A stretch of 64,000 nucleotides of DNA from contig CAZJQL010000001.1 in assembly GCA_964548665.1 (NCBI GenBank), positions 5,462-69,461 on the forward strand, read 5' to 3'. The position numbers and the translations under genes were made by a program. This DNA comes from an uncultured Methanosarcinales archaeon (GTDB lineage Archaea > Nanobdellota > Nanobdellia > Woesearchaeales > 21-14-0-10-32-9). Positions 17,643 through 38,241 of this stretch are shown in pieces (the first letter of the stretch is position 1; each line of letters opens with the position of its first letter). The notes beneath the pieces are model-generated. The model made no database searches, was not told the origin of the DNA, and saw nothing but the letters and a program-made list of their open reading frames with translations.

Positions 17643-17682
17643 TGTAACCCATACAACTATGGTTTAAACCCATATATAAACT

Positions 17683-18219
17683 TTACTGTTTACTTTCGTG
17701 ATGTTCTTCCTTTTTCTTCCGCTTAAGCTTCTTAACAATCCAATCAATCACATTCTTCTTAATATCGAAATTAAAGACAGAAGCACTGATTAAATCTCCA
17801 ATAATGATAAAGATAAGAAATATATTGACGATAAAAACAACTTGATAATTGAAATAAAGCTTATTGTAAATAGCTACATAATTATTGTTCACAGTATCAA
17901 ATTTCTGATTGAGAATAGCAACATCATACCTTGAAATGTTAATCTCCTGCTTAAGATCTTCAATATCTTTTTTAGTTACGTTCTCAGTTATGAGACGAGT
18001 ATATTCAGCCCTGCACTGCTGTACATTCTGATCTAATTGACTATTTTGTTGCTTAAGGCCACTAATTTCAGAATCCTTCTGACCAACTTGAGTAATATAA
18101 GGAGCACACTGAGAATCAGTAGCTATCTTAGACAAAGAAGTAAAGACAGGAATCATAGCTAAGATGAACATCAAAGCCAAAAAGCCACCGACAATAACAG
18201 CAACAGGTCCTTCAGCCAT
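17683..18219 (-). CDS. membrane protein: TM - coiled coil - TM, basic tail; unknown function, inside the R-M operon
   Basis: 178 aa; N-terminal TM (AVIVGGFLALMFILAMIPVF), about 90-aa Q/N-rich coiled coil, second TM, KR-rich C-terminus; 1-bp spacing to hsdS. Confidence 0.45.
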   Translation of the reverse strand: MAEGPVAVIVGGFLALMFILAMIPVFTSLSKIATDSQCAPYITQVGQKDSEISGLKQQNSQLDQNVQQCRAEYTRLITENVTKKDIEDLKQEINISRYDVAILNQKFDTVNNNYVAIYNKLYFNYQVVFIVNIFLIFIIIGDLISASVFNFDIKKNVIDWIVKKLKRKKKEEHHESKQ

Positions 18220-18220
18220 C

Positions 18221-21267: not shown

Positions 21268-22159
21268 TTATTAGTTGTTTTGAGATTTCTTCAGAATTAT
21301 CAAAATAAGACGATAAAGCTGTTGTAATATTGCTTAACATGGAATCAGTTGCCAAATCTTTTAATGAAGGATTCTTTAAGGTATCTTCTATTTTTTGTTG
21401 ATTATCATGTATTTTTTTAAGATCTTTATCATTCATAAATCGTGATGCCAGAAATCCTATGTCTCCTGCAATGATAGGATCGACAATAGAAATCTGGCTT
21501 AAGGCTAATGCTTCTGAAATAGTCTGTATTGAGAATATATCCTCTATTTCCAGAACTTCTCCTATCGTTTTGTAGTTAGTTTCATAATCATAATCCTTTT
21601 TCCAATAGATATTCTTTAGGTCAATAACTGCAAGAAGACTTATTATGCATTTAGCGTTTTGATATTTCGAATATATCTCTTTTTCAAACCACTCCTCAAG
21701 ATCTTTTCGTGTGCTTAGATTTTTCGGCACTTTAGATGGCGGAATTATGCTTAATGCTCCACCAAGATTCTTAGATCCATAATTTTTCTCTATTTCTGTC
21801 TTTATGAATTTGAAATTCTTGCCATCAACTTTCTGATTGGCATATTGAAAAATGATTATAGGAAGAGGTTTTGAATATTTTTTAACTAAATTCTCTTTAG
21901 ATATTCCTTTTCTTTTTAAGGAAGTTATGACATAGCTATAATCTTTTTCAGTCTTCTCTTTGTCACTCAATGCTTCCTCTATTTTTTTATTCTTCGTCTC
22001 TACATCTTGTTTAAGATTCCTATTTTCTTCAATTAATAAGTCAATAAAACTCTGGTTTTGTATTTCTTGTTTTTTCTTTTTACTAAAAATTGAGATAATC
22101 TTATCTAGGACTTTACTTACAAACCACCCTATTATTGATTCTAACCACATCCTATTCAA
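21233..22159 (-). CDS. hypothetical protein: N-terminal TM helix, coiled coil, unknown C-terminal domain; between hsdM and the Mrr-TPR gene
   Basis: 308 aa; overlaps hsdM by 8 bp and the downstream gene by 35 bp (operonic). Confidence 0.4.
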   Translation of the reverse strand: MNRMWLESIIGWFVSKVLDKIISIFSKKKKQEIQNQSFIDLLIEENRNLKQDVETKNKKIEEALSDKEKTEKDYSYVITSLKRKGISKENLVKKYSKPLPIIIFQYANQKVDGKNFKFIKTEIEKNYGSKNLGGALSIIPPSKVPKNLSTRKDLEEWFEKEIYSKYQNAKCIISLLAVIDLKNIYWKKDYDYETNYKTIGEVLEIEDIFSIQTISEALALSQISIVDPIIAGDIGFLASRFMNDKDLKKIHDNQQKIEDTLKNPSLKDLATDSMLSNITTALSSYFDNSEEISKQLISEAKFWVERLC

Positions 22160-23669
22160 ACCCCATCTGCTCTAGGATTTTCTTGAGTTTTTCGTCAGCT
22201 TGTTTTCTTTCTTCTTCTGCTTCTCTTAACTGAACATATGCATCTTCAAGATCAAGTGTTTCATCAGTGCCATTCTGTGCAACGTATCGTGATGGAGAAA
22301 GGTTGTAGTCGTTCTTTGTTATTTCTTCAGCAGTCACTATTTTGCTTACTCCTTCCTCTTCTTTCCATTTCAAGTAGATTGATGCAATCTTGTCTACTGC
22401 TGAATCTGGCATGAAATTCTTTGGCCTTCCTTTCTCAAATAGCTTAGAGCCATTAATCAATAGAACTTTATTCTTGTGTTTCTTATCTTTATTTATGATA
22501 AGAATTATTCCTGGAGCAGTTGTATTATAGAATAGGTTTTCAGGCAATAATAGAACGGCTTCAATTATATCTGCTTCTATGAACTTCTTTCTTATGTCTC
22601 TTTCTCTGTTTGATCCTGCATTTCCTGAGCCACGAGATACTGCCCCTGTGTCTAAGACTACTGCTATTCTTCCTTTATTCTTTAGGGAAGCGAGCATATG
22701 TTGGACCCAACCCCAGTCTGCACTTGACGTTGTTGGATATCCGTAAATGAATCTTCCATATGCATCATTTTCGTAAGTGCTTTGAGGAAAACTGTCTTGA
22801 TTCCACATTGGATTAGCAACGACAATATCGAATTTACGCAAGTGACTGTCTGCTGTTGTGAATGCTGGCCTATTCATTGTGTCGCCAAGAGCTATATCTG
22901 CTTCCATATCGTGAATAAATGCATTCATTTTAGCCATAGCATAAGTTGTATGTAGGCTTTCTTGACCAAAGAATTTCAATGGTTTTACTTTTGTGTTGTC
23001 TCCATGTTTCTCTCTGAATCTCAAGAAACTCTTAATCAATAGTCCGCCTGATCCTAAGCAGGGATCGTATATTTCCTCTCCTTCTTTTGGGTCGAGAATG
23101 TGTGCCATAAGTATTCCTACTTCTTTTGGCGTATAGAATTCTCCTGCACTTTGCCCTGATCCTTCTGCGAATTTTCTTAAGAGGTACTCGTATGCTCTTC
23201 CTATTAAGTCTGGCTCAACATCTTTCTGACCAAGCCTATGTTTGTTTAATGTATCAATTAATGCTTTGATTTTATCGTCTGTGATTATTCTTTGGCCTGC
23301 AGCTGTTGCGTTGAAATCAACTATGTCTATGACTCCTTGCAGTTTAGGGTTTTCTCTTGCTATTGCTCTGACTGCGTCAGTAAGGTATTCTCCGAGTCTT
23401 GTGCTTTGTTTTATTATGTTTGACCATCTTGCATTTTCAGGAAGATAGAATCTTACGAGTGTGTGATCTTCTTCAACGAATTCTTTTGCAGTCTTTATGT
23501 CTTCATATTCTTCTGATAATTTTTGTATTTCATCGTCGAATACATCGCCAAGTCTTTTCAAGAATATAAGTGGTAAGATATAGTCTTTGTATTTTGGTGC
23601 GTCTATTTCCCCTCTGATTTTACACGCTGCTTCCCAGAGCCATCCTTCGAGTGTTTTGATATCTAGCAT
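22152..23669 (-). CDS. hsdM: Type I R-M N6-adenine DNA methyltransferase subunit
   Basis: 505 aa; HsdM N-terminal domain, SAM-binding motif I, catalytic NPMW (motif IV). Confidence 0.9.
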   Translation of the reverse strand: MLDIKTLEGWLWEAACKIRGEIDAPKYKDYILPLIFLKRLGDVFDDEIQKLSEEYEDIKTAKEFVEEDHTLVRFYLPENARWSNIIKQSTRLGEYLTDAVRAIARENPKLQGVIDIVDFNATAAGQRIITDDKIKALIDTLNKHRLGQKDVEPDLIGRAYEYLLRKFAEGSGQSAGEFYTPKEVGILMAHILDPKEGEEIYDPCLGSGGLLIKSFLRFREKHGDNTKVKPLKFFGQESLHTTYAMAKMNAFIHDMEADIALGDTMNRPAFTTADSHLRKFDIVVANPMWNQDSFPQSTYENDAYGRFIYGYPTTSSADWGWVQHMLASLKNKGRIAVVLDTGAVSRGSGNAGSNRERDIRKKFIEADIIEAVLLLPENLFYNTTAPGIILIINKDKKHKNKVLLINGSKLFEKGRPKNFMPDSAVDKIASIYLKWKEEEGVSKIVTAEEITKNDYNLSPSRYVAQNGTDETLDLEDAYVQLREAEEERKQADEKLKKILEQMGFE

Positions 23670-24461: not shown

Positions 24462-25259
24462 TTATTTGTCCTCCCTCACTCTTATTATTCTCGGAAATCT
24501 TAGTTTCTCAAAATCTCCTTTATTGAAAGATAGCTCAATTGTTGAGCCTATAGAATAATCTGCAGAGCTCATCACAGTCCCTGTTTTCTCGTTTTCTGAA
24601 ATATACTTGTAAACCCATGCTTTGTTGTCTTTTGTCTGTTTTTTCTCTATGATCTTGACGTCAATTGTTCGAATGGGTTTCATTTTAATCCAATTGAAGC
24701 GAGAATTTGGCTTGTAGCTTTCAAGATTCTTTATTACAATACCTTCAAATCCCGATTCTATAAGTTTCTTGTAAAGTCTTTCAACGTCGACGATTGTATT
24801 TGTAAATGTGTTTGGAACAATGTTTAAGCTATCATTCTCCTGGACAAAGAAATTGATGTGCTGTCTTCTTGTTACATAATCGGATTCAATCAAGCTGTTG
24901 CTATCAACTTCTAAGATGTCAAAAACAAAGAAGACAAATCTTTCATCGGAAAACAATTCTTTGGCAATTGCACGATGAGAACCTACAACTTTTCCTTTCT
25001 TTAATACGGCCATTTCACCATCAAGAATAATTCTTTCTGGAAGTATCCCCTTTCTAAGATCTTCTGCAATGGACTTATATCTGCTTGAATAATCCTTGCC
25101 ATTACGTGTAATGAGCTTTATTTCTGTTCCATTCTTTTCAAGAAGAATCCTTACCCCATCTATCTTAGGCTCTAAAGCAACAGCATCATTATTGTAGATA
25201 AAAGTTTCCACCTCTCCCTCTCCAACAAGCTGTGGCTTAAAGCTCGTCACATTTATCAT
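24462..25259 (-). CDS. minimal ATP-dependent DNA ligase (NTase + compact OB, 265 aa)
   Basis: Motif I EPKIDGVR, III LDGEMAV, IV EGIVIK, V WIKMKP, VI RFPRIIRVREDK; no DNA-binding N-terminal domain. Confidence 0.8.
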   Translation of the reverse strand: MINVTSFKPQLVGEGEVETFIYNNDAVALEPKIDGVRILLEKNGTEIKLITRNGKDYSSRYKSIAEDLRKGILPERIILDGEMAVLKKGKVVGSHRAIAKELFSDERFVFFVFDILEVDSNSLIESDYVTRRQHINFFVQENDSLNIVPNTFTNTIVDVERLYKKLIESGFEGIVIKNLESYKPNSRFNWIKMKPIRTIDVKIIEKKQTKDNKAWVYKYISENEKTGTVMSSADYSIGSTIELSFNKGDFEKLRFPRIIRVREDK

Positions 25260-25596
25260 CCTTCCTTACCTCCGACAAATCTGCATTTAATCTCTTGATG
25301 ACCCAACATCCTTGACCTTTAGAACTATGAGAACTCTTGAAGTATACCGCGAGAAGAGGAACAATATTGAACTCAATAGCCTTCTCAATTATTCCATGAA
25401 GGCCAGTCATTCTATAAACTACTTCTCGAGTACTTTTGACTTCCACCAAGAAAACCTCTTTTTTAGAGAATAATACTGCATCGCAGACAGAATATTGCCT
25501 TCTACCAGAAGCTGCAACTCTTTCTGTATGATATCCTTTATCTTTCATCATGTTGCAGAAGTCCCGTTCATATTGGAGATGACTTTTCAATCTCAT
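25237..25596 (-). CDS. hjc: Holliday junction resolvase Hjc (archaeal PD-(D/E)xK)
   Basis: 119 aa; GYHTERVAASG...CDAVLF...LVEVKST matches the Hjc E-D-E-K catalytic arrangement. Confidence 0.75.
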   Translation of the reverse strand: MRLKSHLQYERDFCNMMKDKGYHTERVAASGRRQYSVCDAVLFSKKEVFLVEVKSTREVVYRMTGLHGIIEKAIEFNIVPLLAVYFKSSHSSKGQGCWVIKRLNADLSEVRKDDKCDEL

Positions 25597-27115
25597 CAGA
25601 GATCACCTCCAATTCTTGCTCTGCAATCTCGCCAATCAGTTTAGCAATAGAAGATTTTCCGAGAACAACATCTTCGTGGCCTTTGTATTTTTCAAAGAGT
25701 TCTGTAAATCTTCTGAGTCTATCAAGCTCTAAATCCTTGTCAAACTTTATTCCTGCCTTATTGCAGAATGCTCTAAGAATATCAACTTTCTTCATCCATA
25801 AACAAAGAACACCTGCATGTTTTGCCCATTCGAAAAGCTGTTGTCCATTTGGATGATTCATAATCAAAACAGGCATTAATCTATGAGTTCCTGGAATAGG
25901 TTTCATGTCAAGAGATCTTCCATGAGACAAGCATCCAATCATAGAAGTGATGTATTTCTTTCCTGCACTTCCGAGATATTTTCCTTTCTTATCCCTCTTG
26001 ATTGAAACAGCAAATCCAAATATAGGAACTTTCAGCAATTGATCATAACAGAAAATCAAATAGTCTATTGGCTCAGAATCAAACCTCCAAACATCAACAA
26101 GCCTCTGCTCTTTCTCATTAGTATATCTCTTAATGTCGTTTGGATTAAACCAAGAAGGAATCCTCTTTGGAAAGTCCTTATTGAGTCGAATCTGCAGATT
26201 ATATCTCGAGATGAGATACATTACAAAGTAGAATATGGCTTGTTCTTCGAATCCATTTCCGAGAGTGGTCACATCCAATATACTTTTTACAACTTCTTCC
26301 TTATGCAGTTTAGGAGCCTGTTCGAGAACATAACTTTCAGGCATTGTTCTGTTGAAATAGTATCTTCTCTGCTTGAATGATACAACCTTAATCCAGCCGA
26401 CGCTGATAAACCTTACATCAAACCAACTTTTTATATCGCCATTAGTTACTTTGAATCGGTCCTTCATCATGTCAATATTATAGATATCATTGGACTGAGA
26501 AATGAGCAGGAAAGCACTTCTTACCTCTTTAGGCATAAGCTTCAAGATCTTATTATAGATGGCCAAATCATCTTTTCCGTAGACGTAGCCTGGTTTTCTG
26601 CCATGAATCATAGCATTGCCTGGCATCATAAAAGGACTTCTTTTGATGAGCTGCAACCTGATAAGATCATTCAGGCAGAAGTAAACATGATCATAATTCC
26701 CGTATTCCTTATAATACTCTTTTTCCCTCAATAAATAGAGAACTTCAGCAGTCGTATAGCCTTCTTCTGAAGACATCAACGCATCAAAGATTTCTTTTTT
26801 AATGCCTTGCAAGAACTCTTTCTCATCAGTTTTGCTATTTAGCTTCTGAATCTTCTGGTTGATATCATCCTGGCTCATGCCGTAAACAAAGACAGAACTG
26901 CACTTCCTGGCACTGCTCTGAGCCTTTTTCCTGCTCTTGATGATAAGATTGCCCTGCATGATCTGACGCAGGTAAGAAGAGATGTGGCAGTACCTGATGC
27001 CTCTGTCTTTGAAGGCGTCAAAAATCTCTTTTGTAGTAACTGCCCGTCTTTCCGTTATGAACTTATAAATCTGGAAAGTGATACTATTTTTGTCAAAAGT
27101 GATTTTATCGGCCAA
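25568..27115 (-). CDS. hypothetical 515-aa protein with two N-terminal winged-helix-like domains; candidate replication/initiator-type protein of unknown family
   Basis: No Walker A/B seen. 29-bp overlap with hjc (operonic). Confidence 0.35.
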   Translation of the reverse strand: MADKITFDKNSITFQIYKFITERRAVTTKEIFDAFKDRGIRYCHISSYLRQIMQGNLIIKSRKKAQSSARKCSSVFVYGMSQDDINQKIQKLNSKTDEKEFLQGIKKEIFDALMSSEEGYTTAEVLYLLREKEYYKEYGNYDHVYFCLNDLIRLQLIKRSPFMMPGNAMIHGRKPGYVYGKDDLAIYNKILKLMPKEVRSAFLLISQSNDIYNIDMMKDRFKVTNGDIKSWFDVRFISVGWIKVVSFKQRRYYFNRTMPESYVLEQAPKLHKEEVVKSILDVTTLGNGFEEQAIFYFVMYLISRYNLQIRLNKDFPKRIPSWFNPNDIKRYTNEKEQRLVDVWRFDSEPIDYLIFCYDQLLKVPIFGFAVSIKRDKKGKYLGSAGKKYITSMIGCLSHGRSLDMKPIPGTHRLMPVLIMNHPNGQQLFEWAKHAGVLCLWMKKVDILRAFCNKAGIKFDKDLELDRLRRFTELFEKYKGHEDVVLGKSSIAKLIGEIAEQELEVISDEIEKSSPI

Positions 27116-27244: not shown

Positions 27245-27982
27245 TTAATCGTTATCGACTCTTGGTGCTAATATGAATTGTAGGCTTAACTTATCTTTTT
27301 CTAGGTATTCCAGAATTAAAGGATAGTCGTTGCTGAATTTTATTGTTGCTTTTGTTGCTAATTTTGATCCTTGCATCATTTTTTTTAGGTATTCTATTGA
27401 GTATTTGGATTTTTGTGTTGCTTCTGTTTCTATTTTCACTTGTTCATCTGGTTTTATTATTACTTCTGCTCTGTTTAGATCGCCTATCGAGGATATTATT
27501 AAAGATTCTTTGTCTGATTGTAGTATTACGCTTTCACCTACTATGTCCATGTCTTCTATTGCTTCGTTTAGAGTTGAGGACAATAGTTCTATTTTTGCTT
27601 TGGTTGTTAGTTGGGGTATTCTTTGTTGTCTTTCCTCTAAGTCTATTAGTGGAAGATAGAATGTTCTTGTTGTTTTTTCTTTCATAACTATTTTTAATTT
27701 ATTTTCTGTTTTTTCTATTGTGAGTTTGTCTGTAGGTTTTGTTCTTCTTAGTACTTGTTTTAGGTTATCTAGGTTTATTGCTATTGTTGTGTCTTCTTTT
27801 AATTCATATTCTGAGAACATTGTTGCTGGCATTTTGAATATTACCATTGCAACATTTGCAGGATCCATTGCGATTATTTCTATTTGATCTGGCGTTATTT
27901 TGAATTTTGTTTCTTTTACTAATTCGGAGATTATTGCTATGCTTTCTTTTAGAAATTTTGGTTCTGATAGGGTTAATTTCAT
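27245..27982 (-). CDS. pcn: PCNA sliding clamp
   Basis: 245 aa, two-domain PCNA pattern; N-terminal MKLTLSEPKFLKESIAIISELVKETKFKITPDQIEI. Confidence 0.8.
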   Translation of the reverse strand: MKLTLSEPKFLKESIAIISELVKETKFKITPDQIEIIAMDPANVAMVIFKMPATMFSEYELKEDTTIAINLDNLKQVLRRTKPTDKLTIEKTENKLKIVMKEKTTRTFYLPLIDLEERQQRIPQLTTKAKIELLSSTLNEAIEDMDIVGESVILQSDKESLIISSIGDLNRAEVIIKPDEQVKIETEATQKSKYSIEYLKKMMQGSKLATKATIKFSNDYPLILEYLEKDKLSLQFILAPRVDND

Positions 27983-28043: not shown

Positions 28044-30830
28044 TTAAAAACCCATCGAGCTGAATAAGTCGGGTTCTGTTTGAAAAGGATCTGCGTCATA
28101 CATTATTTTTAGTGCGGTTCTTTGTTTTTCAGTTATTTTTCTTTTTTCAGTTTCGCTTAGCTTGGTGTATTGTTGTCTGAAGTCATCTATGCCCAATATT
28201 TTTCCTTCAAAAAAGCTTTTGAAAGCTTGTTTTATGAGAGGAATTTTTGGTTTTTGTATGTTTTGGTAGATTTCATATTCTCTGTCGGCAAATATGACTC
28301 CTGCAAACCAATCTTTGTAAGCTACCGCGTTTACTTTTCCAAAATTTATTGCTTCAGAGACAGGATTATTTTCTGATATTATAAATGTGTTTGCTCTGAT
28401 TGCAGGGTTTGCTTTATTTATTTCTTTTAGTTTTTCTTTTAGCTGTTTGCTTTTTTCTGGTATTATTACATTTAAGTTTATTCCGTGCGGTGATTTGATG
28501 AAATAGAATTTTGCTCCATATTGCATAGAAAATATTATGTTTGCTTGATTAAATTCTTCATCTGAAAGAAAATCTATTATGTTTTCTTCTAGTTTCAATC
28601 CGGTTAACTGAGAAGAATTATAGCTTGGTTTTTGTTTGAATATTTTTTGAGCATCTTCTGACGAGAATTTCCAAAAGTTGTATATTTTGTCCAAGTCATA
28701 ATTTTCCCCGAATCTTAGATTTTTAGCTTCCATGTATGTTCTTGCTTTATCTACAGGTATTTGAAGATGATACTCTAGTATTGATAGCAAACTTTCTTTT
28801 ATTAGTAAATTAGTTTCTTTTTTCGATGATTCAAAAATATATTTAGCTACAGCGTTATTTTCTATGGTTTCCCCGAATACATCTAGGATTATTGTAGGAT
28901 ATTGTAAAATTCCTTGTATTTTTCCAGGCTTATAATCTGAATATTTGAAAAGAGAGTTTGTTGTTTCTGTTATTGTTTTTCTATTTTTTAGTCTTTCCAT
29001 GAATCTTTTAAAATTTTGTTCGTGTCTTTTTGAGTATGTTCCTGTCATAATCTCGTAATTTCTATCTCCTGCTTCGTAATGAAGCATGACCGGGTCTGTG
29101 TTAAACACCGTATTTAATGGTTTGTTGACGAGCATGGCTTCCAGAATTGAGTTTCTTAAAAGCAAGTTTGTAGCTTCAGAGCTTTTCTCACCATCTTCCA
29201 AGGTATAATTACAAACTTCTATGAAATTTTCAAATTTGCCTGATTTTATTTTATCATTTATTTCTTGATAAGATAATGATTTTTTGAATCCTGCCAATGT
29301 TGATAATTTAGAGTCTCCGAGAAGAGTTATTCTGTTTTTTGAATAACAATAAGTATCTAGTATTTCTTGCGCGGTTCTTGACCATATTCTCTGAGATTTT
29401 TTTATGCCGTGTTTTATTTTAAAATCATGCAGATCATTTGTTGAGTTTGAATTTTTTTCTTTGTCGAATTTGGTTAGATGTTCTAAATCGTAATCTAAAA
29501 TGTTGTGGCCTAGTATGAATCTGTATTTTTGTGAGTCTTGATTTAATCTCATGACTAACTCAACTTCGTTTTCAACAAAGACAAATTCTATGTTTTTTTC
29601 TGAGAATCTTTGAATTGCTTTTTCTTTCCAAGATTCATTTCTCCATGCTTCTTTAGACACATATAGTTTTTTTTCATTTTTTGAGTCTAGAACAGCCATG
29701 TATATTCTTCCTGACGGAATGTTATTATTATAATCTATAACTTCTAAGTCTATAGAACAGCAGTTTTCCATGAAAACCGAATGTATTTCTTCTAATTTTT
29801 TTTCTATAGAGTCGAACATTATAGGATTTTTTCTCATATTTATTTGTTGAACTAGTTCTTTTTCTGAGTCAAAAACTGTAAATATTGGAAATTTGTTTCT
29901 TAATTGATTTGTTGGGCTATTTAATGTAAATGGATCTTGAAGTGCTTGTCTTGGAAGGAGAGCGGGTTTTCCTGTTTGCGTAGATATTTTTAATATATTG
30001 TATTTTTTTAATTCTTGTTGAACTTCCACTTCATCAGTTGCAGACATCAATATTTTGTATTGCTTGACTTTTCTCTTGTCTAGAGTTTCTACCACCGTAA
30101 ATTTGTCCACTTTTCTTGGAAATGGAAAATTCTCTAATTCTTTTATTAAACGTTCTAAGTCTTTAGCATTTTGTATTTGTTCTGATTCATATCTTTGAAG
30201 TCTAAATTCGTTTAAATCCAAAAACTTCATGTTTTTGTTTTCTGTTCTTATTTCTATTATGTGTCCATCATCTTTCTTCTTTAGACTTATATCCTCTTCA
30301 GGAATAAAACTTGATAAAACAGTTACGTAATTATTATACGCGAGTTTAGCTTCTTCTTCATCTTTGAAAACTATTGATCTTGCTAATGCACTTTTTTCTG
30401 TGTTTGTTATGAATAAAGGATTTTTTTTGGGACCGAATGTGAAGTCTAATTTTTTTCTTAGAGCTCTGTCTTTCATTCTGGCACGTATAATGTAACTATT
30501 ATTTTCATCTATGTTTTCTAATAATTGAAAGTCATTATTTGTTAAAAAATATATTTTGTCTTCTGCAAACACAATTTCTTTTTCTGGAAAAGTTTTTCCC
30601 CCGCCATATCTGTTAACCGAGAAATTGACTTCAGGATATTCTTTTTCTAATTTTTTTATTGTTTCTTGAAGCGAACCGTGTTTTTTTGGTATGAATTCTC
30701 TTGAAGGAACTTCATGGTCGCTAGCCATCTCTGTTTCTAGAAATTGTTTAGTTTCTGTATCTACGTATTCTACAATTACTTTGTTTCCACTAAGTCCTTT
30801 TGGTTTGACTTGGTAAAATAGCTTAACCAT
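28044..30830 (-). CDS. family B DNA polymerase homologue with apparently inactivated polymerase active site (exonuclease motifs retained)
   Basis: Exo I SIDLEV, Exo II GHNILDYDLEHL. Motif A-like ILQYPTII (D>Q), motif B-like YNSS, motif C-like MQYGAKF (DTD lost). Spacing follows canonical PolB order. Confidence 0.55.
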   Translation of the reverse strand: MVKLFYQVKPKGLSGNKVIVEYVDTETKQFLETEMASDHEVPSREFIPKKHGSLQETIKKLEKEYPEVNFSVNRYGGGKTFPEKEIVFAEDKIYFLTNNDFQLLENIDENNSYIIRARMKDRALRKKLDFTFGPKKNPLFITNTEKSALARSIVFKDEEEAKLAYNNYVTVLSSFIPEEDISLKKKDDGHIIEIRTENKNMKFLDLNEFRLQRYESEQIQNAKDLERLIKELENFPFPRKVDKFTVVETLDKRKVKQYKILMSATDEVEVQQELKKYNILKISTQTGKPALLPRQALQDPFTLNSPTNQLRNKFPIFTVFDSEKELVQQINMRKNPIMFDSIEKKLEEIHSVFMENCCSIDLEVIDYNNNIPSGRIYMAVLDSKNEKKLYVSKEAWRNESWKEKAIQRFSEKNIEFVFVENEVELVMRLNQDSQKYRFILGHNILDYDLEHLTKFDKEKNSNSTNDLHDFKIKHGIKKSQRIWSRTAQEILDTYCYSKNRITLLGDSKLSTLAGFKKSLSYQEINDKIKSGKFENFIEVCNYTLEDGEKSSEATNLLLRNSILEAMLVNKPLNTVFNTDPVMLHYEAGDRNYEIMTGTYSKRHEQNFKRFMERLKNRKTITETTNSLFKYSDYKPGKIQGILQYPTIILDVFGETIENNAVAKYIFESSKKETNLLIKESLLSILEYHLQIPVDKARTYMEAKNLRFGENYDLDKIYNFWKFSSEDAQKIFKQKPSYNSSQLTGLKLEENIIDFLSDEEFNQANIIFSMQYGAKFYFIKSPHGINLNVIIPEKSKQLKEKLKEINKANPAIRANTFIISENNPVSEAINFGKVNAVAYKDWFAGVIFADREYEIYQNIQKPKIPLIKQAFKSFFEGKILGIDDFRQQYTKLSETEKRKITEKQRTALKIMYDADPFQTEPDLFSSMGF

Positions 30831-30918: not shown

Positions 30919-32235
30919 TTAAACATAAATTTTTGAGAAATTTCTTAGTATGTGTATTTTATTTGGAGAATAACCCATTTCTATTGCCAGACTTTTCTGT
31001 GCTTCAAGCATATCTACTGTTCCGTGTGTTGGAATTATGTGCTCAGGCCTTATTAATTTTATGACTTCTCTATGATCTTCTCTGCACGCGTGGCCTGAAA
31101 CGTGCAAGTCTGTGAAGATTCTTACTTTTTTTTGTTTGAGGTCTTCTTCTAATTTTGCTCTATTAACAAAATTTTCTTCTACAGGAATTATTTTGCAAGA
31201 AAATAGAACTAAATCTTCTTGTTCAAAAGGAAATATTTTGTTTTTTGCCAATCTTGACAAAACTGCTTTAGGCTCTCCTTGGTGTCCTGTAACTATGAAA
31301 AGTTTATCCTTTGTTTTGGTTGTTTTTTTGAAGTATTTCTCTATTGTTGATCCAAATCTTACAAATTCAGCTTTTTTCGAAAAATCAGCTATTCCTGCCA
31401 TTTGTGCTGCATCGAGATATTTTGCAAGAGATCTTCCGACAAATACAGGAGTTCTTTTTAGGGATTTTGATAATTCTACAATTGTGTTTATTCTTGCTAT
31501 GTGGCTAGAAAAAGTTGTAACAATTATATTTTTGCCTTCTGATGATGTTCCTAAAAGTACATCTCTGAGCATCTCTCTAGCTATGCTTTCTGAAGGTGTT
31601 TTTCTGGGATCTAAAGCATACAATGAGTCCACTATAAGTGCTTTTACGTTTTTCAAATTTTTCATAGCTTCATAATTTGGTTTTTCTCCTAACAAAGGGT
31701 TGTTATCTAGTTTAAAGTCATTGGCATAAACTACAGATCCTTCTGGCGTATGAACTACAACCATGACTGTGTGTGGTGTGCTATGAGTCACATGTATAAA
31801 TTCTATACCCATATTTTCTGAAACTTTGAATTTACAGTTTTCTGAATGCGAAATAAGTTGAGAATCTATGCTCTTTTTTTTGTCCTTCAATAGCGCTCGT
31901 AGCACTTCTATTGTGAATTTTGTTCCATGAATTGGTGCTTTTAATTTACTTGTAAAGAACGGAACTGCTCCAACATGATCTAAGTGTGCATGACTAATAC
32001 AAATAGCCTTTAAATACTTTAACTCATCTTGAATTGCGTGTAAATCTGGGACTGCTTGTTCTCTTATAAGAAGTTCCTCAGAAAGCGCGAAATGCGTATC
32101 TTCATCTTCGGTCAGTCTGACATAATTTTCCATCATTAAGCCAAAGTCTAGCATAACTGCTTCTTCTTTCCATTTAACGATAGTGCAGTTTCTGCCTATT
32201 TCGCTAAATCCGCCCACAGGAATTATTTCTATCAT
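30919..32235 (-). CDS. beta-CASP metallo-beta-lactamase RNase (RNase J-like)
   Basis: HAHLDHVGAVP motif II; beta-CASP motifs; 438 aa. Confidence 0.75.
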   Translation of the reverse strand: MIEIIPVGGFSEIGRNCTIVKWKEEAVMLDFGLMMENYVRLTEDEDTHFALSEELLIREQAVPDLHAIQDELKYLKAICISHAHLDHVGAVPFFTSKLKAPIHGTKFTIEVLRALLKDKKKSIDSQLISHSENCKFKVSENMGIEFIHVTHSTPHTVMVVVHTPEGSVVYANDFKLDNNPLLGEKPNYEAMKNLKNVKALIVDSLYALDPRKTPSESIAREMLRDVLLGTSSEGKNIIVTTFSSHIARINTIVELSKSLKRTPVFVGRSLAKYLDAAQMAGIADFSKKAEFVRFGSTIEKYFKKTTKTKDKLFIVTGHQGEPKAVLSRLAKNKIFPFEQEDLVLFSCKIIPVEENFVNRAKLEEDLKQKKVRIFTDLHVSGHACREDHREVIKLIRPEHIIPTHGTVDMLEAQKSLAIEMGYSPNKIHILRNFSKIYV

Positions 32236-32257: not shown

Positions 32258-33085
32258 TTATTTATAGCTTTGCAAATATTCTTCTTTTAGATTTTTAAAA
32301 GTGAAGTAAAAATTTGTTCCGACTGAAGGAGTAGATTCAAAAGATAAGTTTCCTCCAAGCAATCTGGACAAGTCTCTTGATATTTTTAAGCCTATTCCTT
32401 TAGAAGTTATTCTATCGGGATTTTCTTTCAGCAAATAATCTTCTTGTTTAAGTTTTTGTTGTATTTCTTCACTAATTCCTAGTCCGTTGTCTTTTACAAA
32501 TCCTTGATATAAGATTCCTTCAGATGTATAAAGCATTTTTATTCCTAATTCTATTTTGTCTTTTGTAAAATCATTTGCATTTGCTGCTAAATTATAGAAT
32601 AGTCTCATCAGTTTTGTTTTGTCGGTATATATTAAATCATGTTCTTTCCCATAATTTTCGGAAGGTAGATGTGTTTTTATTATATTTACAAATTTTTTTG
32701 AACTTGAAGATGCATTATTTATACCAACATATTCTGAGACTTCATCAACGACATCATTTAGGTGTGTTTGCGATATTTTAAGTTTATTTTTGCCTTCTGC
32801 AGATTCTGCCATCTCTGCAAAATCTTGAGTCATAAAATCTAAATACCGTGCCGCTTTCATAATTATTGCAGAGTATTTTATTATTTCTTCAGAACTCACA
32901 GTTTCACCATTTTTTAAAGCAAATCCTGTTTCTTGTATAATTTCTGCAAAGTTTTGTATCGGCATCAGAGGTTTTCTTAAATCATGTAACAAATCTGAGA
33001 CGTCTTGCAAAGAAACACAGGATTTTAAGAGACTTAATACTTCAGAATCAGCTTTTTTCATATCATTATTAGCTCCGACAACCAT
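32258..33085 (-). CDS. sensorless histidine kinase (HisKA + HATPase_c)
   Basis: H-box LHDLRKPL, N-box NLAANANDF, G-boxes DNGLGI/GIGLKI; no TM or sensor domain; no REC gene nearby. Confidence 0.7.
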   Translation of the reverse strand: MVVGANNDMKKADSEVLSLLKSCVSLQDVSDLLHDLRKPLMPIQNFAEIIQETGFALKNGETVSSEEIIKYSAIIMKAARYLDFMTQDFAEMAESAEGKNKLKISQTHLNDVVDEVSEYVGINNASSSSKKFVNIIKTHLPSENYGKEHDLIYTDKTKLMRLFYNLAANANDFTKDKIELGIKMLYTSEGILYQGFVKDNGLGISEEIQQKLKQEDYLLKENPDRITSKGIGLKISRDLSRLLGGNLSFESTPSVGTNFYFTFKNLKEEYLQSYK

Positions 33086-35138: not shown

Positions 35139-36428
35139 CTAAATATCAAACACATCTAACAACTTAGGAGCATAAGTTTGGCCTTTAATGCTTTTTTTGG
35201 CCCAATCATTCAAAGCATATACTGATTCTTCATCGCCGTGTTGAAAAAAAACAGTTTTAGGATTTATTTCTGAGACAAGTTTTTTTATAAAGTCAGAATC
35301 TGTGTGGCCTGAAAAATCATATTTTTCAACTTCACATTTAACTATTGTTTTCCAGCCATCAATATATACAAAACCTTCTTCCAATAATTGTCGTCCGTTG
35401 GTTCTTTTACATTGAAATCCCATGAGCGTTATTTTGTTTTTAGGATCATGCCACAATTCTTTCAAATAATCGAGAACAGGCCCTCCTTGAAGCATTCCGG
35501 AAGTCGTTATAAATATACCTTTATTTTTTATGGCATCCTTTCTTCTTTTTGGACTACTTATCCATTCTACCCTATTATTGAAAAAATCTGCCAATTCTTC
35601 TTTATTACGAACATATTTACTTGCAGTTTCTATTATTTTTCTTGTTATAGTTTTAGCCATACCGTCCACATATATTTTACAGGGAATTTTTTCTCTGGCA
35701 AGCAATAGTATTGCTTCTTGAGCTCTTCCTAAAGCAAATACAGGTACAAGAACAGATCCCCCTTGAGCTATGGTTTTTTTGACAGAAGCAACAAATTTTT
35801 TGGTTAAAATTTTTCTATCAGGCAACGTTCTATTTCCATAAGTTGACTCTGTGATCAATACATCTATGGGCTTACGCTTCATCTCATTTGTAATTATGGC
35901 TTCATACATGAGTTCGGTTTCTCGGTTGTTATAATCTGCTGTATAAAGAACTCTTTTGCCTTCGACTTCTATAAGAATCATTGCGCTTCCGGGTATGTGT
36001 CCTGCATTTATGTACATGAATCTTATATCTTCGTGTTTATACCATTTATCAAATTGAACATATTTTGTTTCTTGAGATATTTCTAAAAGATCTGCCTTAT
36101 TATATGCTGGGTGTAAATGTTTTATTCTTGCTATTTTATAAGAATCTTTCAGCAAGACTTTTGTAAGGGCAAACGTTTGTCTTGTGCAAAATATTGGACA
36201 ATTAAGCTTCTCATGCTCTAAAAAAGGCAATCCTCCTGAATGATCTAGATGTGCGTGACTAAGAAAGACTCCTTTTATTTTTTTTATATCTCCAAGACCT
36301 TCAGGAGTTTGAAAACCGTCTTCCTTGAACTTTATTCCTGCATCAAGTATGTATTTTTTTCCTTTTGTTGTTATGCTTATACAGCTTCTTCCTATCTCTC
36401 TCGCGGCACCGTGAAATTGTATTTTCAT
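35139..36428 (-). CDS. beta-CASP metallo-beta-lactamase (aCPSF2-like RNase without KH domains)
   Basis: HAHLDHSGGLP; beta-CASP motifs; 429 aa. Confidence 0.75.
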   Translation of the reverse strand: MKIQFHGAAREIGRSCISITTKGKKYILDAGIKFKEDGFQTPEGLGDIKKIKGVFLSHAHLDHSGGLPFLEHEKLNCPIFCTRQTFALTKVLLKDSYKIARIKHLHPAYNKADLLEISQETKYVQFDKWYKHEDIRFMYINAGHIPGSAMILIEVEGKRVLYTADYNNRETELMYEAIITNEMKRKPIDVLITESTYGNRTLPDRKILTKKFVASVKKTIAQGGSVLVPVFALGRAQEAILLLAREKIPCKIYVDGMAKTITRKIIETASKYVRNKEELADFFNNRVEWISSPKRRKDAIKNKGIFITTSGMLQGGPVLDYLKELWHDPKNKITLMGFQCKRTNGRQLLEEGFVYIDGWKTIVKCEVEKYDFSGHTDSDFIKKLVSEINPKTVFFQHGDEESVYALNDWAKKSIKGQTYAPKLLDVFDI

Positions 36429-36552: not shown

Positions 36553-38241
36553 ATGATTAATTCTACAGAAATGACCAAAAAAGATTTTATATCGAGAAAT
36601 ACAATTACTTGGTTTTTAGTTTTATCATCAATAATGCTTTTCGATGTTATTTTTATTCAAGTCGTTTGGAGTGATGAATTACAAGAAAACACAGCTATGC
36701 TTAATTTAAACAACAACACAATGAATACAACTTTCATTACAAACAGCACAATTTTTGAAACAGAAAATAAAACAAGAATAGATGTTGCGGGAGAATTTCT
36801 TTTTTTAGACATAAATGATTTCAACAAATCATCCTTTTTGATGGTTAAAAATCTTAATTATTCTAAATACTTGAATTTTACTGTTTTGACAACAATTAAT
36901 TTTGAGCTGAATGAAAGCATCAACAACACAAATAGTTCCAAGCATTGGAAAATAAACAAATCCATAAATTCTTACTCTAAAACTTTTGGAGAAGTTAACA
37001 TGAGCGATAATTTCATTTCATTTTGCGTTTTAATAGAATTGTTGAATGCTGAAGACACAAATATTTCAAATAATCATTTATGTTTTTTGAATGATTCTTA
37101 TTTAAGCAACTCATTTGAAAAAGCAAATGCCTCAGAAAATGTTACAATGATTTATTTTGATGAAAATTTTACTTCTGATTTTAATTTTATTAATTTGAAT
37201 AGCTCTATAAACAATACAAACAACACAAATAATACTAATAACATGAACATTCAAATAAATCCAAATAATATCTCGGCATTCATAAATGATACAAACATTC
37301 AAGAACGCATTCAAACAACTAATGATTCTAATACTTCACAAACATTAAACAAAAATGTTTGTTCATTGAGTTTCGAAACAGACAAATTCATTTATGAAAC
37401 CGGAGAATCCATATTTTTTAAAATAAATGCAAGTAAAGAAGCTTTTCAAAAAGGAATTTATTATTGGATTGAGATTTCTGATGAAACTGTAGTAAAGGCC
37501 AAATTAGAGACAAAAATAGATAGCGCTAAAAAATTTACACCGAAAACAAGCAATAACGAATTATATTTTTTGAAAGGCTACGTTAATGGTTGTAATTCAA
37601 CTCAAGAAAATGTAGTTTTTTTTGTTGGATCTACTGAAGAACAAAAACTGCAGGAAGAAAAAACACAAAATAACTCAATAATTTCAAAAAATTCTTTCAT
37701 AAATATAAAGGAAGCTTATTTTGTAGAACAAACATTCATCATAAAAATTGATGGTTATAGAAACACAACCAATAAAAGAGTTGTTTATGTAATTCTTGAC
37801 GGAGAAAATATAAAAAAAGAAGAGCAGAAATTTAATGCTAGTAATAAAAATTCTTTTTTTTCTTTTGAAAAATATTTTAATCTTTCTTATGTTAATAAAA
37901 CATCGGAATTTAGCGTAAAAATAGAAGGCATAGATGCTCAGTCCGTAATTGAATCTTATTATTTAGAGATAGGAGATGTCTCAACGAGCGAATTTAATAA
38001 AATTGAAGACTCAAATAAAACTTATGAGGAGACAAATAGAATTTATGAAAAATTACTTGATTCGGGTAATTTTTCTGATTTGACAAATATTAACAAAACA
38101 AAAAATGAAGCAGGTTCAATAGTTGTTAAACAAGGTCAGGAACTGAATTACACCCCCGTTTATGCAGTCATTGTGAGTCTGGGAGCGTATATTATATACG
38201 TGTTTGTCAGGCATTTGATTAAAAAACGCAAAATTATATAA
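36553..38241 (+). CDS. N-rich secreted surface glycoprotein with C-terminal TM anchor
   Basis: 562 aa; dozens of N-x-S/T sequons; NNTNNTNNTNN repeat; C-terminal TM plus KKRK tail. Confidence 0.55.
   Translation: MINSTEMTKKDFISRNTITWFLVLSSIMLFDVIFIQVVWSDELQENTAMLNLNNNTMNTTFITNSTIFETENKTRIDVAGEFLFLDINDFNKSSFLMVKNLNYSKYLNFTVLTTINFELNESINNTNSSKHWKINKSINSYSKTFGEVNMSDNFISFCVLIELLNAEDTNISNNHLCFLNDSYLSNSFEKANASENVTMIYFDENFTSDFNFINLNSSINNTNNTNNTNNMNIQINPNNISAFINDTNIQERIQTTNDSNTSQTLNKNVCSLSFETDKFIYETGESIFFKINASKEAFQKGIYYWIEISDETVVKAKLETKIDSAKKFTPKTSNNELYFLKGYVNGCNSTQENVVFFVGSTEEQKLQEEKTQNNSIISKNSFINIKEAYFVEQTFIIKIDGYRNTTNKRVVYVILDGENIKKEEQKFNASNKNSFFSFEKYFNLSYVNKTSEFSVKIEGIDAQSVIESYYLEIGDVSTSEFNKIEDSNKTYEETNRIYEKLLDSGNFSDLTNINKTKNEAGSIVVKQGQELNYTPVYAVIVSLGAYIIYVFVRHLIKKRKII

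What the first reader, a model, noticed from the sequence alone, without database searches (positions are those of the whole stretch)
28044..30830. PolB-family protein with intact-looking 3'-5' exonuclease motifs but degenerate polymerase motifs
Read by eye, Exo I (SIDLEV) and Exo II (GHNILDYDLEHL) keep the acidic residues. In the Pol domain, motif A reads ILQYPTII with Q where the catalytic Asp should be (DxxSLYPS). Motif B is reduced to YNSS. Motif C reads MQYGAKF instead of YGDTDS. Inter-motif spacing matches canonical PolB when about 210 aa of N-terminal extension are allowed for. Inactivated PolB paralogues are known in archaea, but those typically lose the exonuclease residues too. An exo-proficient, pol-dead PolB next to PCNA is worth a look as a possible proofreading or processing factor.
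Basis: partly seen in the sequence, partly recalled or inferred. Interest (0 to 1): 0.7.

Follow-up and report, generated by a model that had tools for sequence, protein, structure and literature searches.

The report
Exonuclease-only PolB relative beside PCNA
This archaeal gene encodes a protein with the predicted shape of a family-B DNA polymerase that keeps every proofreading-exonuclease catalytic residue but has none of the polymerase ones, and it belongs to a small, unnamed family seen so far only in Woesearchaeota/Nanoarchaeota, nearly always next to the sliding-clamp (PCNA) gene.

Summary
The ORF is real: 28044-30830 on the minus strand, 928 aa.

- **No direct hits.** Alone, the protein matches nothing in Pfam, NCBIfam, PHROGs, PADLOC or PDB sequences.
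- **PolB exonuclease domain.** An exhaustive HMM search found 34 cluster representatives. The profile of 29 near-full-length ones matches archaeal PolB exonuclease domains (E=1.4e-10). D361/E363, N443/D448 and Y542/D546 align to Pfu D141/E143, N210/D215 and Y311/D315. All but N443 (26/29) and D448 (28/29) are invariant.
- **No polymerase active site.** Residues 560-928 hold no family-conserved acidic residue, and nothing matches the Pfam polymerase domain.
- **Still under selection.** dN/dS is about 0.1 in every region.
- **Clamp link.** Fifteen of 29 members have LF within the last 8 residues of a QxxLF-like tail. PCNA lies immediately downstream in seven of nine distinct lineages and one ORF away in an eighth.

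Best reading: a clamp-tethered 3'-5' exonuclease on a polymerase-dead PolB scaffold.

Its motif C is probably about six residues off, and the motif A register is ambiguous.

Verdict: new variant of a known kind.

The parts
28044..30830 (-). Whole gene 'X': 928 codons plus stop. A PolB-derived protein.
29766..30830 (-). N-terminal region, residues 1-355. It is about 220 aa longer than the Pfu N-terminal domain. It ends in the family-conserved D299-P-x-x-L-N-S-P-x-x-Q-L-R-x-x-F-P motif (29886-29939).
   Evidence: D299 is present in 28/29 and L310 in 28/29 members. Modelled with high confidence except the loop at 78-103. By eye it resembles the 'YDIPFAKRYLID' segment that precedes Exo I in Pfu. 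hhalign on this region alone was not significant.
29151..29765 (-). DEDDy 3'-5' exonuclease domain of PolB type, residues 356-560.
   Evidence: Family profile against PDB sequences: Pfu PolB 138-357, E=1.4e-10. hhalign probability 96.9%. Against E. coli Pol II 151-372, probability 94.9%. Three family members pass the Pfam gathering score for DNA_pol_B_exo1.
29739..29756 (-). Exo I, SIDLEV (D361, E363).
   Evidence: Invariant in 29/29. Aligned to Pfu D141/E143.
29475..29510 (-). Exo II, GHNILDYDLEHL (N443, D448).
   Evidence: N443 in 26/29 and D448 in 28/29. Aligned to Pfu N210/D215.
29343..29363 (-). ILDTYCY (D492). This conserved PolB exonuclease-domain segment corresponds to Pfu 'HFDLYH' (D259). 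It is followed by L509 and K517.
   Evidence: D492, L509 and K517 are invariant in 29/29. They align to Pfu D259, L275 and K287, which are invariant in the PolB alignment.
29187..29210 (-). Exo III, NYTLEDGE (Y542, D546).
   Evidence: Invariant in 29/29. Aligned to Pfu Y311/D315.
28086..29150 (-). Residues 561-915: polymerase-like remnant (palm, fingers and a shortened thumb) without catalytic carboxylates.
28887..28910 (-). ILQYPTII (641-648): end of strand 636-645 and start of a helix. It is either the motif A remnant, with Q639 at the Asp position, or the pre-fingers 'GFIPS' equivalent.
   Evidence: Secondary structure. The family block shows G636 in 26/29 and Y644 in 20/29, with a variable residue at the would-be Asp position. 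The alternative register comes from hhalign.
28482..28502 (-). FIKSPHG (777-783): probable motif C hairpin, with K779 and P781 in place of Pfu D541 and D543.
   Evidence: Beta-hairpin 777-779/785-787 flanked by helices 757-771 and 789-807. A weak hhalign alignment pairs Y771-G772 with Pfu F533-G534. The region is unconserved across the family. Tentative.
28047..28073 (-). C-terminal tail PDLFSSMGF: a clamp-binding-like short motif.
   Evidence: pLDDT below 50 for residues 924-928. LF occurs within the last 8 residues in 15/29 members against a background of 0.027. Tails such as DQIGLF, EQLSLFG and EQPTLFDL resemble the E. coli Pol II C-terminus GQLGLF.
27245..27982 (-). PCNA gene, immediately downstream (61-bp gap).
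   Evidence: Pfam PCNA_N and PCNA_C. Immediate adjacency is kept in six other lineages (L001, L003, L011, L013, L008, L014). In L009 one ORF intervenes. L010 has no PCNA nearby.
30919..32235 (-). RNase J-like beta-CASP nuclease gene, immediately upstream (88-bp gap). It is a syntenic neighbour and is not claimed to be part of the function.
   Evidence: Pfam match. Synteny is kept in L001, L003, L009, L011 and L013, and in L008 with two genes between.

Best explanation
X is a strongly diverged paralogue of an archaeal family-B DNA polymerase. It has kept a working DEDDy 3'-5' exonuclease site and lost the polymerase active site.

The remaining N-terminal, palm, fingers and short thumb parts serve as a DNA-binding scaffold. 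They would hold a primer-template in something like a permanent 'editing mode'.

A flexible C-terminal QxxLF-like peptide tethers the protein to PCNA, whose gene lies next door. On the clamp it trims 3' ends. It could proofread in trans for a polymerase that leaves mismatches, or clean up 3' termini during repair or Okazaki-fragment processing.

**Shown here:** PolB-type exonuclease homology, conservation of the catalytic residues, the PolB-like predicted architecture, absence of conserved polymerase carboxylates, purifying selection, synteny with PCNA, and the conserved tail.

**Inferred:** exonuclease activity, lack of polymerase activity, PCNA binding, and the DNA substrate.
For: - **Exonuclease homology.** Family profile against Pfu PolB residues 138-357, E=1.4e-10, with all catalytic residues paired. 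hhalign probability is 96.9% and 94.9% to E. coli Pol II. Three members exceed the Pfam DNA_pol_B_exo1 gathering score.
- **Residue conservation.** D361, E363, D492, L509, K517, Y542 and D546 are invariant, and D448 is present in 28/29.
- **No polymerase site.** No conserved acidic residue lies in 560-928. No Pfam DNA_pol_B hit appears even at E<=1 in the ten most distant members, or at E<=0.1 in all 29.
- **Selection.** dN/dS is 0.10 (N-terminal), 0.064 (exonuclease) and 0.109 (C-terminal) for L003 against L011.
- **Clamp link.** PCNA is adjacent in eight of nine distinct lineages, immediately so in seven, down to 23-31% identity in X. The LF tail is enriched at a nominal P~1e-16 and resembles the Pol II C-terminus.
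Against: - **Nothing enzymatic or physical was tested.**
- **The C-terminal homology rests on a predicted structure.** At sequence level it is not significant (hhalign P=0.034, probability 1.5%). I could not inspect coordinates or superpose the C-terminal part on its own.
- **The window protein's own tail (EPDLFSSMGF) is not a canonical PIP box.**
- **Synteny may be inherited gene order.** All members come from one fairly narrow clade. The 61-bp spacer before PCNA carries its own TATA-like and Shine-Dalgarno-like sequences, so co-transcription is not implied.
- **X evolves about five times faster than its neighbours.** dN/dS is 0.09 against 0.018, and identity is about 50% against about 85%. 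That is unusual for a core replisome part.
- **The polymerase set of these genomes is unknown to me,** so the need for a trans-proofreader is not established.
Confidence: 0.6

Rival explanations
1. X is still a DNA polymerase that uses a rearranged active site. A precedent is PolB2/Dpo2, which was predicted to be inactive but was later shown to work in translesion synthesis.
For: PolB2 was called inactive from its motifs (PMC2527604) and then shown to function as an extender polymerase (PMC8764526). The C-terminal region of X is under purifying selection. A D694-K695 pair is invariant in the 11 closest members. Some members carry D/E at the motif-A-like position.
Against: PolB2 keeps one motif C Asp (PMC7544198). 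The X family has no acidic residue conserved in 24 or more of 29 members anywhere in 560-928. The motif C region is not even alignable across the family. D694 is present in only 17/29 members. No member matches Pfam DNA_pol_B.
Confidence: 0.07
2. X is mainly a non-catalytic scaffold of the replisome, like the inactive C-terminal half of eukaryotic Pol epsilon. The exonuclease motif conservation would then reflect DNA or metal binding rather than turnover.
For: Inactivated PolB modules with structural roles are known (Pol epsilon C-terminal half, PMC2669801 and PMC7544198). X is adjacent to PCNA, and its large non-catalytic N- and C-terminal parts are conserved.
Against: In known scaffold PolBs the exonuclease carboxylates are lost. 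Here all five DEDDy residues are invariant or present in 28/29 members that are otherwise only about 17-54% identical. The exonuclease domain also has the lowest dN/dS, 0.064.
Confidence: 0.12
3. X is a nuclease for another substrate or process, for example RNA 3'-end trimming together with the neighbouring RNase J. It would then not be a clamp-bound DNA editor.
Against: The exonuclease domain matches PolB specifically, not the RNase D/Rrp6 families. The whole PolB DNA-binding architecture is retained. The tail resembles PolB clamp-binding peptides. PCNA adjacency is tighter than RNase J adjacency, since L008 has two genes between RNase J and X. There are no PADLOC or PHROG hits.
Confidence: 0.1
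4. The PolB resemblance is a chance pattern, or the ORF is not a real gene.
For: The single sequence has no hit in Pfam, NCBIfam or PDB sequences.
Confidence: 0.01

Closest known systems
Archaeal replicative/repair family-B polymerases of the Thermococcales type (PolB3; Pfu, KOD, Tgo and P. abyssi PolB)
   Same: They are the best sequence-profile and structure matches. They share the N-terminal and exonuclease architecture, the Exo I/II/III residues, the 'hFDLY...K' segment, a palm/fingers/thumb-like C-terminal part, and a C-terminal clamp-binding peptide.
   Different: X has no motif A or motif C aspartates and no motif B KxxxNSxYG. It has about 220 extra N-terminal residues. The stretch after motif C, which holds the thumb, is about 85 residues shorter. 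X does not reach Pfam DNA_pol_B.
PolB2 / Dpo2, the 'inactivated' archaeal PolB group (Rogozin 2008; Makarova 2014)
   Same: Both are archaeal PolB paralogues with a disrupted canonical polymerase motif C.
   Different: PolB2 also lacks Exo I and Exo III and keeps one motif C Asp (PMC2527604, PMC7544198). It is linked to arCOG07300 and RadA-like genes (PMC4104785). X keeps the full exonuclease site, has no conserved motif C Asp, and is linked to PCNA and RNase J.
C-terminal half of the eukaryotic Pol epsilon catalytic subunit
   Same: Both are PolB-derived modules that have lost polymerase catalysis yet are retained under selection.
   Different: In the Pol epsilon C-terminal half both polymerase and exonuclease are inactivated, and it is fused to an active PolB (PMC2669801, PMC7544198). 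X is a stand-alone protein with an intact exonuclease site.
Pol alpha and Pol zeta catalytic subunits
   Different: They are the mirror image of X: exonuclease dead and polymerase active (PMC7544198).
Bacterial DnaQ (Pol III epsilon subunit)
   Different: Epsilon is a small (about 240 aa) DEDDh enzyme with no polymerase-like scaffold. X is a 928-aa DEDDy enzyme of PolB descent.
B7 (Pol II-like) PolBs of Woesearchaeota and Pacearchaeota
   Same: They occur in the same host clade (PMC7544198). The QxxLF-type C-terminus of many X members resembles the Pol II end GQLGLF.
   Different: B7 proteins are described as nested within bacterial Pol II. The X profile matches E. coli Pol II far more weakly (E=0.026) than Thermococcales PolB (E=1.4e-10), so X is not a B7 member.

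Membership tests
Family-B DNA polymerase (PolB) superfamily | PolB-type 3'-5' exonuclease domain (Pfam DNA_pol_B_exo1) with Exo I DxE, Exo II NxxxFD and Exo III YxxxD | tested here: met
   The window protein alone has no Pfam hit. The family profile hits the Pfu PolB exonuclease domain at E=1.4e-10 with all motif residues paired. hhalign probability is 96.9%. P0024, P0027 and P0033 pass the gathering score.
Family-B DNA polymerase (PolB) superfamily | Overall N-terminal / exonuclease / palm-fingers-thumb architecture | tested here: met
Family-B DNA polymerase (PolB) superfamily | Motif A DxxSLYPS with a catalytic Asp | tested here: not met
   The candidate position is Q639, and it varies across the family (Q/K/S/D/E/N/R). 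The register itself is ambiguous.
Family-B DNA polymerase (PolB) superfamily | Motif B KxxxNSxYG on the fingers helix | tested here: not met
No such motif exists. K678 (23/29) and K695 are the only conserved lysines on helix 675-702.
Family-B DNA polymerase (PolB) superfamily | Motif C YGDTDS with catalytic Asp residues; Pfam DNA_pol_B (PF00136) | tested here: not met
   The probable hairpin reads FIKSPHG. The region is not conserved. No conserved D/E lies in 560-928. There is no PF00136 hit in 29 members at E<=0.1, or at E<=1 in the ten most distant.
Family-B DNA polymerase (PolB) superfamily | Template-directed DNA synthesis | not testable with these tools
   Needs biochemistry.
PolB2 / Dpo2 'inactivated' archaeal PolB group | Exonuclease motifs disrupted (Exo I not conserved, Exo III missing) | tested here: not met
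   Exo I and Exo III are invariant in X, and D448 of Exo II is in 28/29 members. The PolB2 features are taken from PMC2527604 and PMC7544198.
PolB2 / Dpo2 'inactivated' archaeal PolB group | One conserved Asp retained in motif C, plus the group-specific D(K/R) motif | tested here: inconclusive
   No conserved motif C Asp. A D694-K695 pair exists in the closer members, but I could not test whether it is equivalent to the PolB2 D(K/R) loop.
PolB2 / Dpo2 'inactivated' archaeal PolB group | Operon with arCOG07300 and an inactivated RadA | tested here: not met
   The neighbours are RNase J and PCNA in the window and in relatives. No RadA-like gene lies within 10 kb in L001 or L003. A small arCOG07300-like ORF could not have been recognised.
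DEDDy (DnaQ-like) exonuclease superfamily | Four acidic residues plus Tyr in three motifs on an RNase H-like fold | tested here: met
PCNA-interacting proteins (PIP box) | Canonical Qxx[LIM]xx[FY][FY] near a terminus | tested here: not met
   The window protein ends ...QTEPDLFSSMGF, which is not canonical.
PCNA-interacting proteins (PIP box) | A conserved, disordered C-terminal hydrophobic clamp-binding peptide | tested here: met
   LF occurs within the last 8 residues in 15/29 members against a background of 0.027. The tail has pLDDT below 50. It is similar to the Pol II GQLGLF end.
PCNA-interacting proteins (PIP box) | Physical binding to PCNA | not testable with these tools
   No complex prediction or assay was available.

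The most novel reading that the evidence does not exclude
X is a dedicated, clamp-riding 'editing-only' enzyme, built from a PolB locked in editing mode. In these reduced DPANN genomes it would supply proofreading or 3'-end clean-up in trans to a replicative or repair polymerase. That would be an archaeal counterpart of the bacterial epsilon subunit, arising independently from a polymerase.

A still bolder reading is not excluded: X may retain some nucleotidyl-transfer activity through a non-canonical site, as happened with PolB2/Dpo2.
Probability: 0.3. Interest if true: 0.8.

Novelty: new variant of a known kind. Interest (0 to 1): 0.62.

Why it matters
Inactivated PolB modules described so far fall into two kinds. 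Archaeal PolB2 and the Pol epsilon C-terminal half have lost both active sites. Pol alpha and Pol zeta have lost only the exonuclease.

A conserved family with the opposite pattern, exonuclease kept and polymerase lost, would show that a polymerase scaffold can be recycled as a stand-alone, clamp-associated editing nuclease.

It would add an unannotated component to the replication and repair toolkit of DPANN archaea. Every named member is currently labelled 'hypothetical protein', and no Pfam or NCBIfam model recognises this protein or its close relatives.

It would also give a natural system for studying the PolB editing conformation and its coupling to PCNA without competing synthesis.

Tried and rejected
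- **Single-sequence searches gave nothing.** Pfam, NCBIfam, PHROGs, PADLOC and PDB phmmer all returned no meaningful hit. A three-sequence profile against PDB also failed.
- **AF2 with three sequences was useless** (pLDDT 41). Only the 29-sequence alignment gave a confident model.
- **The word-indexed homologue search found only 3 proteins**. The exhaustive HMM search was needed.
- **Sequence-level test of the C-terminal part failed.** hhalign of residues 560-928 against Pfu 350-775 gave a colinear 319-column alignment at P=0.034, probability 1.5%. I use it only as a hint for registers. The N-terminal region alone was also not significant.
- **The PolB reference profile was shallow.** The Pfu-seeded search returned only Thermococcales sequences at 72% identity or more.
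- **afdb50 was not installed**.
- **Locus searches were thin.** With A4 it found only 5 metagenome loci. The genome scan found 1.
- **A conserved KxY motif was considered.** K839-D-W-F fits in the close homologues but is not conserved family-wide, so I dropped it.
- **K678 as the motif B lysine was considered.** Its spacing fits the first part of the fingers better, so this is unresolved.
- **Literature searches found no description of such a family**. The divergent PolB clusters listed in the PolB survey (PMC7544198) do not include one like it.
- **I could not establish which other DNA polymerases these genomes encode.** None lies in the 64-kb window.
Full report
**1. What is at the coordinates**

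- The window carries an ATG-started ORF at 28044-30830 on the minus strand. It encodes 928 aa and I call it X.
- The next gene downstream, after a 61-bp gap, is PCNA (27245-27982). After it come a 515-aa ORF with no detectable family, an Hjc resolvase and a 265-aa ATP-dependent ligase. Upstream, after an 88-bp gap, is an RNase J-type beta-CASP nuclease.
- The rest of the window is an ordinary low-GC (about 33%) archaeal chromosome. It holds a thermosome subunit, ScpB, SecY, ribosomal protein L3 and what looks like its ribosomal-protein operon, and a type I restriction-modification system.
- No other DNA polymerase lies in the 64 kb.

**2. Is it a PolB?**

- Alone, X matches nothing in Pfam, NCBIfam, PHROGs, PADLOC or PDB sequences.
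- The word-indexed protein search found only X itself and two homologues at 50-51% identity.
- An exhaustive profile search of 1.84 billion cluster representatives found 34 proteins, most of them 780-1060 aa.
- Members that carry a name are 'hypothetical protein' from Candidatus Woesearchaeota or Nanoarchaeota MAGs.
- A 29-member alignment has seven invariant columns: D361, E363, D492, L509, K517, Y542 and D546. D448 is present in 28/29.
- The profile of that alignment hits Thermococcales PolB chains in the PDB, with Pfu 3a2f at E=1.4e-10. The match covers Pfu residues 138-357. Residues pair as follows:

| X | Pfu PolB | Motif |
|---|---|---|
| D361 / E363 | D141 / E143 | Exo I |
| N443 / D448 | N210 / D215 | Exo II |
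| D492 | D259 | 'hFDLY' segment |
| K517 | K287 | conserved lysine |
| Y542 / D546 | Y311 / D315 | Exo III |

- hhalign gives 96.9% probability against a Thermococcales plus E. coli Pol II alignment. It gives 94.9% against E. coli Pol II alone.
- Four of the 29 members hit Pfam DNA_pol_B_exo1 at E<=0.1. Three of the most divergent ones pass its gathering score on their own.
- The exonuclease domain is therefore a PolB-type DEDDy domain with a complete, strongly conserved active site.

**3. The rest of the protein**

- AlphaFold2 on three sequences failed (pLDDT 41). On the 29-sequence alignment it gave pLDDT 88.6 and pTM 0.88, with high confidence throughout residues 560-920.
- Foldseek against the PDB returns only family-B polymerases in its top 50. 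E-values reach 3e-13 and alignments span 800-940 columns. The viral library returns almost only viral PolBs.
  - Yeast Pol alpha: 495 aligned residues.
  - Pol epsilon: 526 aligned residues.
  - Fragments holding only the N-terminal and exonuclease domains align 275 residues (T4, 1noy) and 330 residues (Pol2 1-528).
- By the Pfu domain boundaries as I recall them, the N-terminal and exonuclease domains of a Pfu-type PolB total about 368 residues. At least 100 residues of the polymerase domain, and probably 150-200, therefore superpose in the same rigid frame.
- The order of secondary-structure elements after residue 560 follows my recollection of the PolB palm/fingers/palm/thumb order. It runs: strand 636-645, a helical pair 647-671 and 675-702, helix 757-771, hairpin 777-787, helix 789-807, a sheet 811-856, then a few helices.
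- The stretch after motif C, which holds the thumb, is about 85 residues shorter than in Pfu.
- At sequence level this homology is not demonstrable. hhalign of 560-928 against Pfu 350-775 gives a colinear 319-column alignment at P=0.034, probability 1.5%.

**4. The polymerase active site is gone**

- Across the family no acidic residue in 560-928 is conserved in more than 23 of 29 members. The only invariant or near-invariant acidic residues lie in the exonuclease domain and at D299.
- No member matches Pfam DNA_pol_B, at E<=0.1 for all 29 or at E<=1 for the ten most distant.
- *Motif C.* The helix-hairpin-helix context and the weak hhalign register put Y771-G772 opposite Pfu F533-G534. The hairpin F777-I-K-S-P-H-G783 then sits opposite Y539-I-D-T-D-G, so D541 becomes K779 and D543 becomes P781. 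The homologues read VGTPQG or VGTPFN there.
- *Motif A.* Two registers are possible.
The spacing fits: 93 residues from Exo III against 90 in Pfu.
  - In the hhalign register, YP(645) equals the pre-fingers 'GFIPS' motif. The family's NPxxKxDL (674-681) then equals Pfu DPIEKILLD (473-481), and motif A would be deleted.
  - In neither register is there a conserved carboxylate. The would-be Asp position varies (Q, K, S, D, E, N, R).
I reject it.

**5. Is the protein maintained?**

- For the orthologue pair L003/L011 (83% aa identity), NG86 dN/dS is 0.092 overall. By region it is 0.100 (N-terminal), 0.064 (exonuclease) and 0.109 (C-terminal).
- PCNA gives 0.018 and RNase J 0.017 in the same pair. 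dS is about 1, so the values are approximate.
- Against the window, L001 and L003 share 86% (PCNA), 83-84% (RNase J) and only 50-51% (X) identity.
- X is under purifying selection in all parts, including the polymerase-like remnant, but it evolves several times faster than its neighbours.

**6. Link to the sliding clamp**

- PCNA lies immediately downstream of X in the window and in six other distinct lineages (L001, L003, L011, L013, L008, L014). One ORF intervenes in L009, where X is only 23% identical. The most divergent locus, L010, has no PCNA nearby.
- Other flanking genes differ between these loci.
- Fifteen of 29 members have the dipeptide LF within their last eight residues. The background for 8-residue windows in these proteins is 0.027, giving a nominal binomial P~1e-16 that ignores relatedness.
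- Typical tails are DQIGLF, DQYNLF, EQLSLFG, EQPCLF and EQPTLFDL. The window protein ends TEPDLFSSMGF.
- The tail is predicted disordered.
- Canonical PolBs end in the same kind of peptide: E. coli Pol II in GQLGLF and Thermococcales PolB in KQVGLxAWL. That these are the clamp-binding peptides is my own knowledge of those enzymes.
- I infer that X binds PCNA through this tail. This was not tested.
- The X-PCNA spacer holds a TATA-like box and a GGAGG-like sequence, so PCNA may have its own promoter.

**7. Most likely mechanism**

- X most likely works as a PCNA-tethered 3'-5' exonuclease.
- The degenerate palm, fingers and thumb and the enlarged N-terminal region would hold primer-template DNA as an editing-mode PolB does. 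The intact DEDDy site would remove nucleotides from the 3' end.
- Plausible roles are trans-proofreading for a polymerase without efficient editing, or trimming of damaged or mismatched 3' ends in repair or lagging-strand maturation.
- Confidence: about 0.9 that X is a PolB derivative with an intact exonuclease site and no canonical polymerase site, and about 0.6 for the clamp-tethered exonuclease mechanism.
- Rivals:
  - A non-canonical polymerase, by analogy with Dpo2 (PMC8764526). Disfavoured because no carboxylate is conserved.
  - A pure scaffold like the Pol epsilon C-terminal half. Disfavoured by the invariant exonuclease residues and the lowest dN/dS in that domain.
  - A nuclease for RNA or another process, suggested by the RNase J neighbour. 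Disfavoured by the PolB-specific domain, the retained DNA-polymerase architecture and the clamp-type tail.

**8. Comparison with what is known**

- Known inactivated archaeal PolBs (PolB2/Dpo2) lack Exo I and Exo III, keep one motif C Asp, and sit with arCOG07300 and RadA-like genes (PMC2527604, PMC4104785, PMC7544198). X fails those features.
- The Pol epsilon C-terminal half has lost both sites. Pol alpha and Pol zeta have lost only the exonuclease.
- The 2020 PolB survey (PMC7544198) reports B7 (Pol II-like) and B9 PolBs in Woesearchaeota. Its divergent clusters are PhiKZ, PolEpsilonC, PolB_SITDG and PolB_CDTDS, and none resembles X.
- Six literature searches found no description of an exonuclease-intact, polymerase-less PolB family. 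The library searched is incomplete, so prior description cannot be excluded.
- I file X as a new variant of a known kind: within the PolB superfamily by exonuclease domain and fold, but not a member of any described PolB group and not a polymerase by motif criteria.

**9. Limits**

- All functional statements are predictions.
- The C-terminal homology depends on an AlphaFold2 model whose coordinates I could not inspect.
- The other DNA polymerases in these genomes are unknown to me.
- Synteny comes from a phylogenetically narrow set of metagenomic contigs.

Noticed in passing
window 25568-27115 (-): A 515-aa ORF (TTG start) lies between PCNA and the Hjc resolvase. It has no hit in Pfam, NCBIfam, PHROGs or PADLOC. 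It is not found at this position in related loci (L001 and L003 have other genes after PCNA).
   Followed up: partly
window 24462-25259 (-) and 25237-25596 (-): The ATP-dependent DNA ligase here is only 265 aa. It has an adenylation domain and a weak OB-domain match, and no N-terminal DNA-binding domain. Its start overlaps the end of the Hjc resolvase gene by 23 nt. From my own knowledge, cellular archaeal ligases are usually about twice this size.
   Followed up: no
window 28044-30830 versus neighbours; loci L001, L003, L011: X evolves far faster than its syntenic neighbours. Identity to the window is about 50% for X, against 86% for PCNA and 83-84% for RNase J. dN/dS is 0.092 for X, 0.018 for PCNA and 0.017 for RNase J.
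   Followed up: yes
window 28740-28754 (-), residues 693-697 VDKAR: A D694-K695 pair sits on the long helix 675-702. It is invariant in the 11 closest family members and D694 is present in 17/29 overall. Its role is unknown. It recalls, without evidence of equivalence, the D(K/R) motif proposed to rescue catalysis in PolB2.
   Followed up: partly
window 13632-23669 (-): A type I restriction-modification locus (hsdR 13632-16553, hsdS 18221-19516, hsdM 22152-23669) is interrupted by extra genes. These are a Pol-beta-type nucleotidyltransferase (17076-17642), a 178-aa coiled-coil-like ORF, an Mrr_cat nuclease fused to TPR repeats (19513-21267), and a 308-aa ORF with no family.
   Followed up: no
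window 30919-32235 (-) and 35139-36428 (-): Two beta-CASP/RNase J-like paralogues lie within 5 kb of each other. Both are kept in the same order in the related loci L001 and L003. Between them are a soluble histidine kinase (32258-33085) and three small coiled-coil or low-complexity ORFs.
   Followed up: no
window 36553-38241 (+): A 562-aa ORF sits in the lowest-GC stretch of the window (GC 0.27) and has no Pfam hit. An unannotated ORF of 443-490 aa occupies the same syntenic position in L001 and L003.
   Followed up: no
window 1-64000: No tRNA gene and no Rfam family at gathering score were found anywhere in the 64 kb.
   Followed up: no
locus L010 3911-5320: In the most divergent X-bearing locus, which has no PCNA nearby, a Toprim (DnaG-like) gene lies about 2.7 kb upstream of X.
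   Followed up: no
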